Below, one piece after another: positions 54,117 to 59,534 of a stretch of DNA of 64,000 nucleotides (position 1 is the first letter of the stretch; each line of letters starts with the position of its first letter). The translations under genes and the position numbers were made by a program. The notes beneath the pieces are model-generated. The model searched no databases and was not told the origin of the DNA. It was given only the letters and a program-made list of their open reading frames with translations. This DNA is from the human T2T-CHM13v2.0 reference genome, Homo sapiens. Where the stretch lies: assembly GCF_009914755.1 (NCBI RefSeq), contig NC_060934.1. One strand, 5' to 3'.

Positions 54117-55641
54117 GTAAGTGGCAGCAGCACGGTGGGTGGGACTGGCAGCTGTGCCGTGAGCTCCAGGGAATTCTGTGGCTGTGGGAGGATTTGCCCA
54201 GCTTGGCCTGGTCCCAGTGTCCTGGGAGGTGTCAGAGGAGCTGGCCTGCCACTGCGGCATGGCCTCCTGCAGTTACCAGTAGAGGGAGGCCCTAACCTGA
54301 GTTAGGAGGAGCCAAGGGGCATGAGTAGTAATTTGGGCCTGCCTTGGGCCCAGCCTCCAAATCCCAGGGCCATAGGGGACCAGATGTGGCCCTGCCTTTG
54401 GGTGGGTCAGTGGCAGTGTCCCCATCACACGCAGAGGCCTGCTCTCTCTGGGTGGTCTTGATCTCTGGCTTCCCTCCATCACGTCCACATTTGAGGCCTT
54501 TCTAAGACTTGATCCAGCCCACCCTGATACTCAGCACTCATTGGAGTGCTGGCCTGAGCCCACTGTAAACAGGTGCACTTAGAGCTTAGGCGGTGGGCCA
54601 GGCAGAGGCTGGCTTGCCTGATCTTAGGGCTTTGGGTTTTGTTTAGAGTGTGTTCATTCATTCAATATTTCTTGAGCACCTACCATGCACCGGGCCCCAT
54701 TCTAGGAATGAGGCTACAGTGGAGACCAGGACAGAGAAGCCCTCAAGAGGCTACATGCTGGGTGGACACAAATGAGCTACTGTTCAGTAGGTCATGCCAT
54801 GTCACAGGGGCAGAACCAAGAGACACCATCAGCCCTGTTAGATTTTATCCCAGCTCTGCTCCTCCAGGCAGGTGGGACCTCCTCTCCACACCTGCAACAT
54901 GGGGCTGACACCAGGGGAACCTCTGAGGCCCCTCCCTGTGGAGACACAAGGTCAAGCTTATAGGCCTGTGTATCTGCCTAGCAATCAAAGCCAGATGCAG
55001 CCATCTGGGAATGTTTAAGAACTTAGAATTCTTGGGATTTGGCATTAATGACTAATTGTGAAGAGCAAACTTTTAAATGTAAACTCTTATTATGGTAGGT
55101 GCCTACCATGTGCAAAGCTCTGTGCCCAGCCTTGCAGAGTCTTGGAGAGGCTCAAGAGGCAGGCGCTGACAGGGGCTCAAGAAATGAGGTTGAGTTGAGT
55201 TGAATGAAACCTGGTCTTTGCACTCAAAGGCCCTCTGTGGGAAGCCAGCGAATGGCTATGAGTTTTTAATGGTGGGATAGATGGCTCCTGCTGTGGAGGT
55301 GAGCCCACAGGTGAGACAGCTAGGACCAGTGGCCGAGTGGGGCTTGATCTGGCCTTGGAAGCTGTAAGAACATGGGTGGAGCTCACAGAAGGGGTGGGTG
55401 TCTGGGAGTGGTGAACAGCAGGAGCGAAGGCTTGGAGGGCAGGATGAGCCCCGTCCCAGTGGGAGCAGCCTTGGAGAGAAGATTGGTCCTCCCCACTACG
55501 TGGTTGGAATACTGAGGCCAGGAAGAGCGATCTGAGCTCCGGGTCAGGTCAGGGTCTCCTGCTGCTGGCCTGCCTGCCTGCCTGCCTTCCCGGGGCAGGC
55601 TCCTGGGATGTATCAGGACTCCTCTGTCTTCCCCATTCCAG

Positions 55642-55785
55642 GCTCGGCATGGAGCATGACGGTCAGGGGAATGGCTGTGCAGATGAGACCAGCCTGGGCA
55701 GCGTCATGGCGCCCCTGGTGCAGGCTGCCTTCCACCGCTTCCATTGGTCCCGCTGCAGCAAGCTGGAGCTCAGCCGCTACCTCCC
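55642..55785 (+). CDS. ADAMTS14: ADAMTS14 exon 8 (144 nt, phase 2-2), third zinc His and Met-turn
   Basis: Not present in the ORF track in this frame; read by hand. Acceptor ccattccag|G; encodes [47 protein letters not shown]; donor CC|gtaggt. Completes HExxHxxGxxHD. Confidence 0.96.
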
Positions 55786-55966
55786 GTAGGTCATTCCTGC
55801 CCTCAGAGCTGGGATAGGGGAGCATGCGACCTGCCACTCTGAGCAGACATCACACAGCTGGCTGGCTTCCCCACGTCGCCCCTGGCTTGACTCTTCCGTG
55901 ACTCATCTCGCCTCCCCGCCAAACCTGGCCTAAAACATACCCCATTAGCATAGCAGGTGGGTTAGT

Positions 55967-56143
55967 CTAGTGTTTCAGAACGTGTTCAGGTGACCATTTA
56001 CATAGAATTCTTATTAAAAATGCAGACCCCCTGGCTCATGGAAGATGGTAAGTTAGATTCTGCTGGGGTTGGGTCTAGGAAGCTGGATTTATCAAGCATT
56101 GCAGGTGATACTTATGCCTGCTGAAGGTTATGAGCCACTGGGC
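55967..56143. mobile_element. MER5-like hAT element just upstream of the exon 9 duplicate
   Basis: ttaaaaatgcagacccc...caggtgatacttatgc...tgagccactgggct pattern. Confidence 0.6.
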
Positions 56144-56167
56144 TGAGGCTTGGGGCTCTAAACCCAG

Positions 56168-56262
56168 TGGCTCCTAACGACCCCTTTGAGCCCACCTGGC
56201 CCCAGCCCCCAGAGCTGCCCGGGATCGACTTCTCAATGGATGAACAGTGCCACTGTGGCTTT
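56168..56262 (+). pseudogene. Degenerate partial duplicate of ADAMTS14 exon 9 (pseudo-exon) in intron 8
   Basis: 56179-56262 aligns without gaps to 56948-57031 with 10 mismatches in 84 nt by hand count; [28 protein letters not shown] vs [28 protein letters not shown]. Confidence 0.9.
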
Positions 56263-56925
56263 CCCCCAGGCCCCAAGGAAATGGGCATGCTGAGGAGGGA
56301 GCTCCTCCTCTCCCCACTCCCATCCTTGGCCCCAGCAGCACACTCCCAATTCCGGCCTGGCTGGTCAGCTCCTGGGTCTTCAAGGATGTTCAGGTACAGA
56401 GCAAGTGTTAGACTCAGGACCTTGAGGCCTGAGAATGGGAGGCCAAGTGGATTTGGATGGGGGCAGGTGGAGGCAGAGATATAGTCACTAGCCCCGTACA
56501 GGAGCTGGCCAGGGCGGCTCGCCCAGGGTCCATCTTGCATGGTAGGCTTTTCTCCTTCTTTCAGTACAGAGTGAGTCCTCAAACTGTCTATGAATCAACC
56601 ATTAGTCTTGGCCATATCGTGTCCCTCTAAGGTGGGCAAAATGACCTCCTAATCCAGCTGCAAGCTGAGTATCTAATCCCAGTCTGGGTACCCTCGCCTT
56701 TGGCTGCAAATGGAGCCCTTCCAGATATAGTCACTGGTGGGAGTGAGGTCCTGAGTGAGGGGCTGCTCAAGGCAGCCCATCCTCCCTGGAAGAGACAGCG
56801 CTGGGAACAGAATAGCGGGTGCAAATTCTTGCAGGCCTTGCTCATGAAAACCCCAGCCCCTGGGAAGGGAAAGCCTGGGACTTCCTGCTGTCAGCCTGGC
56901 TCACCTTCCTTGTCTCTACTGGCAG

Positions 56926-57058
56926 CTCCTACGACTGCCTCCTCGATGACCCCTTTGATCCTGCCTGGCCCCAGCCCCCAGAGCTGCCTGGGATCAACTA
57001 CTCAATGGATGAGCAGTGCCGCTTTGACTTTGGCAGTGGCTACCAGACCTGCTTGGCA
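56926..57058 (+). CDS. ADAMTS14: ADAMTS14 exon 9 (133 nt, phase 2-0), catalytic domain end and disintegrin-like start
   Basis: Acceptor ctactggcag|C; donor GCA|gtaagt; encodes [44 protein letters not shown]. Confidence 0.96.
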
Positions 57059-58435
57059 GTAAGTAGCCATCTGGCCTCTGCCAGGTGGTTGGGGGCCAGG
57101 GCAGTGTCCTTCTGTGGCCCATGCTGACCATTCATGAGGTGCCTTCTGCCCAGCTGGCCAGTGGGCCTGGTGATGGGCCCACAGACACAGTGCCAGCCAC
57201 CATGCAGGGATGCAGAGTGAACACCTGTGGGGGCAGGTGGACACAGTGGCTTGGGAATGCATTAGCCCTGGGAAAGATGGGAACAGCAGAGCAGAGAGGG
57301 TGGGCACCTGATGGGATACTGTCTGGATACTGCAAGGGAGCCCAGGTTCCAGATAAGTTGTTGGGCTCTGGCCTGGTGGAGCAGCAGGTCCCACACCCTC
57401 CGGGGATGTGCCAAGTCTTTCAGTCTAACTCCCCACCTTCTGCACCTGCACATCACCTCTCTCCAGAGCGTCAGTTCCATGTCCCTGCTGCCTGTGCCTG
57501 AGGACATAGATACAAGGGAGCATAACCTTGTCCCTACCCTGCAGGATGGCACAGGGGAAGACTGCTGAGCCTGAGATCAGCTAGAGTCCCCTAGGAGAGA
57601 ACTCAACAGCTGCCACCCAGGGCCCAGGCTGAGCTGTCAGAGAATGGGCCATCTCAGGGGTAGGGGGCTTTCTGAAGGGGGCAGGCCTTGGGGACCTGAG
57701 TGCTTCATACTACCCATCAGGGAATGCAGCTCTCTTCACCTCCGTGGAATGGGGAGCGCCCCCAACCATGTGTGGACACCTTCCCCACTGTCTGGGACAT
57801 GTGGTCTGACAAAGTGCCTGAGTTGTGGGCAGAGGACAAGGACATGGGATTTCAGGGTCCAAATGCTGTACTTGTAGGATGCTTGTCTGGCTGGCAGGGG
57901 ATAAGAGGGAATATTAAGGAAGCTATGGCTTCTCTGGACAATCTGAAACGTAAGGTCATCAACCTCTGGCATGGCTGGGTGTCCAAGTTACAGGGAGGTG
58001 GAGTCCCAGCCTCGTTGGAGTGCTGGGGTGGGGGGGTCTGGGCTGGAAAGCAGCAGTCCCCTTAATTCTCCCCATGTGCACAGGGCTCAGGGCAGGGGCA
58101 CTGTGAACCCAGACCTCCCCAGAGCCTCACACCCTAGTCCCAGCTCAGTGACAAATGGCCTCTGTAAAGCGGGGGAGGGAGGCCTTGGAGAGAGAACGAC
58201 AAGAGCATGGGCCATGGCTAGGCTCTTTCTCAGTGCCATGGAGAAAGGAGGGGTCCCTGGAGGCTGCCGGTACTTGGAGTTGAGTAAACTTGAAGCAGGT
58301 GAGGGGCTCTGGCTGCTTTCCCTGCAGTGCCCTGGGTGCCTGCACTCATCACACCCTCTTTTCTCTCCATCACTGCCCTTTGTTCTTGGACAAAGAGCCA
58401 GTCCAGTCTGGTGACCCCATTCCCTTGCCATGCAG

Positions 58436-58549
58436 TTCAGGACCTTTGAGCCCTGCAAGCAGCTGTGGTGCAGCCATCCTGACAACCCGTACTTCTGCAA
58501 GACCAAGAAGGGGCCCCCGCTGGATGGGACTGAGTGTGCACCCGGCAAG
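58436..58549 (+). CDS. ADAMTS14: ADAMTS14 exon 10 (114 nt, phase 0-0), disintegrin-like domain
   Basis: Acceptor ccatgcag|TTC; donor AAG|gtacct; encodes [38 protein letters not shown]. Confidence 0.96.
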
Positions 58550-59534
58550 GTACCTGTGGGGTGTGCAGCAGGAGTGGCCTTCCTGGGGTGCAGGGCATCC
58601 ATCACTGGCATGGGGGTGGATCCCAGAGTGAACCCTGACCCCTCCCTCCAAGTGCTTATATGAGTTGAGGGTGGTGCTAAAAGACAGTGGTGAGTCCAGT
58701 GTGTGGGTAAATACACGTGGAGTCTTCCCATAAACTCACCCTGTCTTCTCTCCCAGCCCACAGCCCTTTGTCTCTGTAATTGGCTGAGGGTAGCATGATC
58801 TCCTAGCCCATCTGACAGGAAGGCTTACTTCCATTTTACCAATGAGAAGAATGGGGCCCAGGCAGGTTGATTAAGGAACTTTATGGGGTCCCTCAGGGAG
58901 TGATTAGCAGAGAAGGGATGCAGAGAAATCTCTGTGTGTCCTGCCTACTCCCCCACCCCTATGCTGTCTCTGAGCATGAGACACACGTGTTCTCCCCACA
59001 CCAACCTCCTTCATGAATGTCCTGTGTTTGCTCCCTCATGCATGTGTGGGTGCCAGGGCTTCATTTGCCCGGGGGACCCCGTGGCTGGGTCTGAAACCCA
59101 GCTCTGCTCTGCTGCCGGCCCTGCCCTTGATCACTGTGGTGACCTTGGGCCGTTCATTGAACTTTTCTGACTCGCCAACACCTGACCAACCTCAGGGTTG
59201 TTCTGAGGTAACTGACTCATGTCAAGGCACGTGAGGGAGCAGGGAAGAAGCCAGGTGCTAGGAGAGGTGGTTCCTCAGCATCAGCAGGAGCCCAGCCCCA
59301 GGGCCACCCCACCAGCCTGCCCCCTGCCTCCTGCCCTAGCCAGGCTCCTCCTATTCACACCTGTCCTGCTGAGCAGCTCTGGGGCTTGTCCTGTCACAGG
59401 TGGATGGAGCTTCCCCTGGCCTGGCAGGTCCTTGATGGGTTATAGCTGTTCCAGGTCTTTCCACTTCTTAAGTTTTCCCAGGTGTTTTCAAAGTTCCAGA
59501 CCCTCCCCAGCCACAGTTTCACGAGACAGTTCAT

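What the first reader, a model, noticed from the sequence alone, without database searches (positions are those of the whole stretch)
56168..56262. Hidden tandem duplicate of ADAMTS14 exon 9 in intron 8: fossil or poison pseudo-exon
Seen: 84 nt (56179-56262) match exon 9 (56948-57031) without indels, at 74/84 identity and 769 bp upstream. The differences are 3 synonymous and 7 non-synonymous (D>E, A>T, N>D, Y>F, R>H, F>C, D>G), and the NYS glycosylation sequon is lost. Homology extends 5' (tggctcct-aac vs tgcctcctcgat, a 1-nt deletion) and then stops. A MER5-like element lies where the pyrimidine tract should be, and the exon 9 donor is absent. The nearest AG (aacccag|, 56167), spliced to phase-2 exon 8, would read CCT GGC TCC TAA, an immediate stop. 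Inference: this is a partial exon duplication, the usual raw material of mutually exclusive exons. It has either decayed neutrally, consistent with the substitution pattern, or acts as an NMD/truncating exon. Such a truncation would end the protein almost exactly after the catalytic domain. It could also cause read mis-mapping or gene conversion with exon 9.
Basis: partly seen in the sequence, partly recalled or inferred. Interest (0 to 1): 0.8.

Follow-up and report, generated by a model that had tools for sequence, protein, structure and literature searches.

The report
Decayed exon 9 fragment in intron 8
A short internal piece of ADAMTS14 exon 9 was copied into the preceding intron in an early primate ancestor and has drifted as junk since; it is an ordinary molecular fossil, though it preserves the older spelling of the exon.

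Summary
Window 56179-56262 matches exon 9 (56948-57031) at 74/84 nt without indels, 769 nt upstream on the same strand (gapped blastn E=1.4e-23). These are the only two copies in the T2T genome.

It is a fragment, not a duplicated exon. It lacks the first 10-22 nt and last 27 nt of exon 9 and both splice sites. The flanks show no homology.

- Three of the seven amino-acid differences (E/D462, T/A464, D/N475) are changes in the real exon 9.
- The copy keeps the E, T and D states still seen in lemur, loris, colugo, tree shrew and squirrels, so it predates crown anthropoids.
- The NYS sequon was gained by exon 9 (Homo, Pan, Gorilla), not lost by the copy.
- The four copy-specific changes (Y>F, R>H, F>C, D>G) hit residues invariant in 55-56 of 56 proteins.

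An orthologous copy in an unnamed relative (P0001) is no better conserved in the core than in the flanks. No credible acceptor exists.

Verdict: a neutral fossil, probably a repair-mediated capture of proximal DNA. The poison-exon reading is unsupported. Interest is low.

The parts
56179..56262 (+). Core of the copy: 84 nt homologous to the inside of exon 9 (protein residues 459-486)
   Evidence: 74/84 identity, no indel. One of only two places in the genome. Translation is [28 protein letters not shown].
56168..56178 (+). Ambiguous 5' edge: either an 11-nt extension of the homology (with a 1-nt gap) or the 3' arm of the hairpin
   Evidence: Included in the gapped blastn alignment. Also paired in the stem of the 56127-56178 hairpin.
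56948..57031 (+). Donor segment inside exon 9
56926..57058 (+). ADAMTS14 exon 9 (annotated); the copy lacks its first 10-22 nt, last 27 nt and both splice sites
   Evidence: Hub annotation. Frame checked. Splice-site measures.
56127..56178 (+). Stable hairpin ending exactly where the 84-nt core begins
   Evidence: Arms of 21 nt, 86% complementary. RNA fold -30.7 kcal/mol, z=-3.8, 0 of 200 shuffles as stable. The Rfam match to mir-587 is only 19 bits against a gathering score of 80, so it is not significant.
55960..56145 (+).
   Evidence: No second copy found by genome DNA search, blastn or nhmmer. The family name rests on recall only.
56166..56167 (+).
   Evidence: 9 of 17 pyrimidines at -20..-4 and a longest Y run of 4; the ten real exons have 12-15 of 17. 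Reading from exon 8 gives PGS-stop.
56437..56476 (+). 40-nt patch, 70% identical to intron 9 (57207-57246) on diagonal 770; status unexplained
   Evidence: Best of 1300 diagonals outside the core. The exact 13-mer occurs only at 56459 and 57229 in the window, with 0.01 expected. The intervening 174 nt are at random identity.

Best explanation
An internal piece of ADAMTS14 exon 9 (84 nt, at most 96) was copied once, in direct orientation, into intron 8, 769 nt upstream.

Timing: the event happened in a eutherian, most likely early primate, ancestor. It came before the last common ancestor of monkeys and apes, because the copy still carries the E462, T464 and D475 spelling that exon 9 had then.

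Content: the copy never included either splice site or the ends of the exon.

Mechanism (inferred, not shown): its short length, sharp edges, nearness to its source and non-homologous flanks fit repair-mediated capture of proximal DNA at a chromosome break, by synthesis-dependent strand annealing or template switching. They fit unequal crossing-over of an exon-plus-intron block less well.

Fate: since then it has drifted as neutral intron DNA. It is not spliced and has no function.
For: 1. Real and unique.
2. Fragment only: homology ends 27 nt before the exon 9 donor and 10-22 nt after its acceptor. Banded alignments of the flanks against empirical nulls give z=0.98, 0.59 and -0.85. The 174 nt after the core are 24% identical.
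3. Age: 56 named proteins were hand-picked from the 120 listed of 850 hits. Exon 9 reads E..T..D in Nycticebus, colugo, Tupaia, two squirrels, Tenrec and Dasypus (Prolemur also carries E, T and D). It reads D..A..D in 3 Old World monkeys, 2 of 3 New World monkeys and Pongo. It reads D..A..N in Homo, Pan, Gorilla and Saimiri. The copy has E, T and D.
4. Loss of coding constraint: Y476F, R483H, F484C and D485G fall at residues that are Y in 56/56, R in 56/56, F in 56/56 and D in 55/56. Among 148 stored relatives with a full match, none has F476, C484 or G485 and one has H483.
5. An orthologous copy exists in an unnamed relative (P0001). It shares E, D, F, H, C and G. Against human it is 118/137 identical in this frame, with core 25/28 and flanks 93/109 (Fisher p=0.76).
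6. No credible acceptor and no RefSeq exon there (hub table).
7. Size and distance match the proximal repair-mediated duplications of PMC2671141: median 147 bp, at most 619 bp, donor within 5 kb, two whole and two partial exons among them (abstract and passages).
Against: - The 40-nt patch and exact 13-mer on the neighbouring diagonal hint that more than 84-96 nt was involved.
- No empty orthologous site could be inspected. Breakpoint signatures (microhomology, filler, deletion) and the true age bracket are therefore untested.
- Neutrality rests on one orthologous copy seen only as a translated ORF, and on 4-7 substitutions.
- Splice-site measures were crude (pyrimidine count, consensus matches). 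Cryptic donors scoring as well as real ones (6-7 of 9) exist downstream at 56394, 56467, 56571 and 56632.
- No RNA-seq data could be examined.
- ADAMTS14 is not in the supplementary list of PMC2671141 (0 occurrences in 4 files).
Confidence: 0.8

Rival explanations
1. It is a classical tandem duplication of a roughly 769-nt block (exon 9 plus the start of intron 9) by unequal crossing-over. Either most of the block has since decayed or been replaced, or it is an older duplicate whose core was re-homogenised with exon 9 by a short gene-conversion tract within Eutheria.
For: - Same strand.
- The 40-nt, 70% patch with an exact 13-mer lies on diagonal 770, one off the core's 769. It is the best of 1300 diagonals, and the 13-mer occurs only at these two sites in 64 kb, with 0.01 expected.
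- Sharp edges of high identity are what a conversion tract would leave.
Against: - The 174 nt between core and patch are at 24% identity with no indel drift (offset changes by 1).
- Banded alignments of all flanks are not above the null.
- At the age implied by the core, neutral flanks should still be clearly alignable (my estimate from recalled primate rates is over 80% identity).
- A tandem junction would fall inside exon 9.
- The paralog exons in ADAMTS2 and ADAMTS3 show no second copy.
Confidence: 0.1
2. The copy is used as RNA. It acts as a poison (NMD) pseudo-exon, or as a decoy exon that keeps exon 9's enhancer motifs and tunes removal of intron 8.
For: - Inclusion from AG 56166-67 gives an immediate stop.
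- Downstream GT sites match the donor consensus as well as real donors do (6-7 of 9).
- The AG lies in a strong hairpin, which could regulate its use.
- Such a truncation would fall 9 residues before the end of the catalytic-domain match.
Against: - The acceptor tract is weaker than all ten real acceptors in the window (9 vs 12-15 of 17 pyrimidines). The only in-frame AG (56146-47) has G at -3.
- No RefSeq transcript uses it (hub table).
- The core is not more conserved than the flanks in the one orthologous copy.
- Literature searches returned no paper pairing ADAMTS14 with pseudoexon, poison exon, cryptic exon or exon duplication among the 15 top-ranked papers shown of 352. ADAMTS14 is absent from the main text and 10 supplement files of PMC5740500.
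Confidence: 0.05
3. It is a chance similarity or an assembly artefact.
For: None found.
Against: - E=1.4e-23 locally and 3.3e-21 against the whole genome.
- 12% divergence between the copies.
- An independent unnamed contig ORF (P0001) carries the same copy with the same flanks.
Confidence: 0.01

Closest known systems
[quoted passage not shown]
   Same: - Short insert: 84-96 bp here; 50-619 bp with median 147 bp there.
- The donor is on the same chromosome within 5 kb (769 bp here).
- The events date to primate evolution.
- Whole and partial exons are among the donors, inserted into introns of the same gene.
   Different: - Their events were recognised inside transposable elements and confirmed by empty orthologous sites and breakpoint signatures. 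Neither could be checked here.
- ADAMTS14 is not in their tables.
- This copy may be older than most of theirs.
Tandem exon duplications and unannotated intronic exon copies (PMC9013439, passages; PMC5740500, passages; the 2002 survey of exon duplication, seen only as described in PMC9013439)
   Same: A sequence in an intron is homologous to the neighbouring exon, on the same strand and at over 80% identity.
   Different: Those candidates are whole exons of similar length, in the same frame, with splice sites, and some have junction reads. This one is an internal fragment without splice sites and with replacements at invariant residues.
Poison exons and pathogenic pseudoexons (e.g. the review PMC8819188, seen only in the search listing)
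   Same: It is intronic and would introduce a premature stop if included.
   Different: There is no evidence of inclusion, the acceptor is weak, and conservation does not exceed that of the flanks.

Membership tests
Repair-mediated proximal duplication (RD) | [quoted passage not shown] | tested here: met
   84-96 nt; only two places in the assembly.
Repair-mediated proximal duplication (RD) | Donor on the same chromosome within 5 kb | tested here: met
   Offset 769 nt.
Repair-mediated proximal duplication (RD) | Flanks of the insert are not homologous to the flanks of the donor | tested here: inconclusive
   Banded alignments are not above the null and identity is 24%. However, a 40-nt patch with an exact 13-mer lies on the next diagonal.
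Repair-mediated proximal duplication (RD) | Empty orthologous site in an outgroup, with microhomology, filler or deletion at the breakpoints | not testable with these tools
   No other vertebrate genome DNA is held. Only a translated ORF of one relative (P0001) was available.
Tandem exon duplication / mutually exclusive exon pair | Copy spans the whole exon, with similar length and the same frame | tested here: not met
   84-96 of 133 nt. The first 10-22 nt and last 27 nt are missing.
Tandem exon duplication / mutually exclusive exon pair | Own acceptor and donor sites | tested here: not met
   No donor at the homologous place. The nearest AG has a poor tract and is out of frame.
Tandem exon duplication / mutually exclusive exon pair | Splice-junction reads to both neighbouring exons | not testable with these tools
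   No RNA-seq is available here. The hub's RefSeq table lists no exon at 56168-56262.
Poison (NMD) exon | Inclusion introduces a premature stop | tested here: met
   PGS-stop from AG 56166-67. 9 of the 10 AGs between 56100 and 56262 give a stop within 34 codons.
Poison (NMD) exon | Evidence of inclusion, and conservation above the surrounding intron | tested here: inconclusive
   Inclusion is not testable. Conservation in P0001 is 3/28 differences in the core vs 16/109 in the flanks, no excess. This rests on a single relative seen at protein level.

The most novel reading that the evidence does not exclude
The fragment still carries exon 9's splicing-enhancer content beside a strong hairpin that sequesters the nearest AG. 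In anthropoids it might act as a decoy or conditional poison exon that lowers ADAMTS14 output when the hairpin is opened. Alternatively, the hairpin's transposon-like inverted ends may mark a break at a hAT-type element that was healed by copying exon 9. That would make this a dated example of transposon-linked exon capture.
Probability: 0.05. Interest if true: 0.5.

Novelty: new member of a known kind. Interest (0 to 1): 0.15.

Why it matters
It matters mainly as a clean negative. The 'hidden exon' is a non-functional fragment, so it needs no annotation as an exon and poses little risk to read mapping or gene conversion (the longest identical run is 25 nt).

Two small positives remain.
- The fossil freezes the pre-anthropoid spelling of exon 9. 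Together with the orthologs, it shows that the N475-Y-S glycosylation sequon of human ADAMTS14 is a recent gain, by a CpG transition, shared with chimpanzee and gorilla. Among the sampled primates, orangutan, Old World monkeys and two of three New World monkeys lack it.
- It is a plausible addition to the catalogue of repair-mediated proximal duplications that copied exon sequence.

Tried and rejected
- The 28-aa query was below the tool's minimum. I re-sent it as the 50-aa frame 56149-56298.
- I searched for further orthologous copies and found only P0001. The second hit (P0122, 3325 aa, 25 stretches) is an unrelated repeat protein with no DEQC motif.
- I tried to verify the 'MER5-like' element. 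The genome DNA search found only self, blastn against the window found only self, and the best non-self nhmmer hit had E=0.47. The element is neither confirmed nor refuted.
- Polarising the differences with the human ADAMTS3 and ADAMTS2 exons suggested that all seven replacements were in the copy. The ortholog survey overturned this for three of them.
- An inversion inside a larger duplicate is unlikely: there are no minus-strand hits in the relevant interval.
- The Rfam scan of intron 8 found nothing near a gathering score.
- Literature: no ADAMTS14 hit appeared. The exon-copy tables of PMC9013439 sit in an external repository and were not seen.

Full report
**1. The observation**

Reading 55600-57200 and a repeat scan of 55000-58600 show an 84-nt direct repeat. 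It pairs 56179-56262 with 56948-57031 at 88% identity and a spacing of 769.
- A recount gives 10 differences.
- blastn of intron 8 against 56700-58435 extends the match to 56168-56262 vs 56936-57031 (96 columns, 1 gap, E=1.4e-23).
- A DNA search of the window's own assembly (3.1 Gb) returns only the copy itself and exon 9.
Exon 8 ends in phase 2, and AG 56166-67 leads to P-G-S-stop.

**2. Extent of the copy**

Homology stops 27 nt before the end of exon 9 and 10-22 nt after its start, so neither splice site was copied.
- After the core, identity on diagonals 769 and 770 is 24% and 20% over 174 nt.
- Banded semi-global alignments of the three flanks were compared with 587-675 other offsets in the window. 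They give z=0.98, 0.59 and -0.85.
- One anomaly remains. A 40-nt, 70% patch (56437-56476 vs 57207-57246) lies on diagonal 770 and is the best of 1300 diagonals.
- Its exact 13-mer occurs only at these two sites in the 64-kb window, with 0.01 expected. I could not explain it.
- That hairpin folds at -30.7 kcal/mol, z=-3.8, with 0 of 200 shuffles as stable. The 5' edge therefore lies somewhere between 56168 and 56179.

**3. Polarity and age**

A six-frame search of the genome with the exon 9 peptide finds the homologous exons of two paralogs, on chromosomes 4 and 5. These are ADAMTS3 and ADAMTS2 by their position and similarity (my naming). It also finds the intronic copy. Judged against those outgroups, all seven replacements looked copy-derived.

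The ortholog survey corrected this. From the 120 listed of 850 hits I took the 56 that I could label from their names and tabulated the exon 9 segment.
- Exon 9 reads DPFEPTWP...DYS in Nycticebus, colugo, Tupaia, two squirrels, Tenrec and Dasypus. Prolemur reads DPFESTWP...DYS, also with E, T and D.
- It reads DPFDPAWP...DYS in Macaca, Chlorocebus, Colobus, Callithrix and Pongo. Cebus reads DPVDPAWP...DYS, with the same D, A and D.
- It reads DPFDPAWP...NYS in Homo, Pan, Gorilla and Saimiri.
- The intronic copy reads DPFEPTWP...DFS.

Three conclusions follow.
- The copy was taken from an exon 9 that still had E462 and T464, before the crown anthropoids.
- E>D and T>A are changes of the real exon in the anthropoid stem.
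- D475>N, a transition at a CpG (context), created the NYS sequon in African apes. The sequon was gained by the exon, not lost by the copy.

The E-P-T spelling is seen only in eutherians in this sample. The marsupial and the birds read E-H-Q or E-H-R. This bounds the event to Eutheria.

The copy lineage carries 4 assigned substitutions plus up to 3 unpolarised synonymous ones in 84 nt (4.8-8.3%). By primate neutral rates as I recall them (no call), this suits an early-primate or anthropoid-stem date.

**4. Constraint**

The four copy-specific replacements are Y476F, R483H, F484C and D485G.
- They fall at residues that are Y, R and F in 56 of 56 proteins and D in 55 of 56.
- Among 148 of 149 stored relatives giving a full ungapped match, none has F476, C484 or G485, and one unnamed ORF has H483.
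- Pairwise pN/pS is 0.58 on 16.7 synonymous and 67.3 non-synonymous sites. That is uninformative with ten changes.

A protein-database search with the 50-aa frame across the copy found P0001, an ORF of an unnamed contig. It matches the core and both flanks. It was the only such hit again.
- P0001 shares E, D, F, H, C and G with the human copy.
- Against the human frame it is 118/137 identical, with core 25/28 and flanks 93/109 (Fisher p=0.76).
- So the copy exists in an independent relative, which argues against an artefact, and its core is no better kept than the surrounding intron.

**5. Splicing potential**

The ten exons of the selected transcript in the window served as an internal yardstick.
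- Real acceptors have 12-15 of 17 pyrimidines at -20..-4 and C at -3.
- AG 56166-67 has 9 of 17 and a longest pyrimidine run of 4.
- The only AG that would keep the copy's frame (56146-47) has 9 of 17 and G at -3.
- Downstream GTs with 6-7 of 9 consensus matches exist, as expected by chance, and real donors score 6-8.
- These measures are crude. No RNA-seq, SpliceAI or MaxEnt was available.
- The hub's RefSeq table lists no exon at this place.

**6. Protein context**

Pfam places the Reprolysin domain at 261-460 and ADAMTS_CR_2 at 472-541 of the human protein. Exon 9 starts at residue 452. The copy corresponds to residues 459-486.

**7. Mechanism and comparison**

The copy is a short, sharply bounded, same-strand insert 769 nt from its source, with non-homologous flanks. 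This matches the proximal repair-mediated duplications described in PMC2671141 (abstract and passages).
- That study reports 824 events with the donor within 5 kb, a median length of 147 bp and a maximum of 619 bp.
- Two whole and two partial exons were among the donors.
- Chimeric two-donor inserts were also described.
- ADAMTS14 is not in its four supplement files.

The copy does not meet the definition of a tandem exon duplicate or a mutually exclusive exon candidate, which requires a whole exon, similar length, the same frame and splice sites (PMC5740500 and PMC9013439, passages). ADAMTS14 is absent from the text and the 10 held supplement files of PMC5740500.

By recall, the hairpin arms look like a 3' and a 5' terminal inverted repeat of a hAT-type element. 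That would place the insert inside a transposon, as in that study's catalogue. No tool here could test this.

**8. Verdict**

It is a new member of a known kind and of low interest.

Noticed in passing
window 56996-57004 (exon 9, residues 475-477): The N475-Y-S sequon of human ADAMTS14 is seen in Homo, Pan, Gorilla and Saimiri among the 12 primates sampled. Pongo, three Old World monkeys, Callithrix, Cebus, loris and lemur have D-Y-S. The change is a transition at a CpG, and it recurs in scattered non-primates.
   Followed up: partly
window 56127-56178: A strong hairpin (-30.7 kcal/mol, 0 of 200 shuffles as stable) ends exactly at the start of the exon copy and encloses the AG at 56166-67. There is a weak, non-significant Rfam resemblance to a miRNA precursor (19 bits vs 80).
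   Followed up: partly
window 56437-56476 and 57207-57246: A 40-nt, 70% match with an exact 13-mer found nowhere else in the window lies one diagonal off the exon copy, although the sequence in between is unrelated.
   Followed up: partly
window 55805-55956: The hub lists this exon for other transcripts. It starts 19 nt after exon 8 and is not preceded by AG (the preceding bases are ...CCCTC), while its donor CAG|GTGGGT matches 8 of 9. It may be a first exon or a retained-intron boundary rather than a cassette exon.
   Followed up: no
P0152 (unnamed ORF): This is the only stored relative with H at the position of R483. It is a divergent ADAMTS-like exon ORF reading QQCHFDF, so the copy's R>H is not unique in nature.
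   Followed up: no
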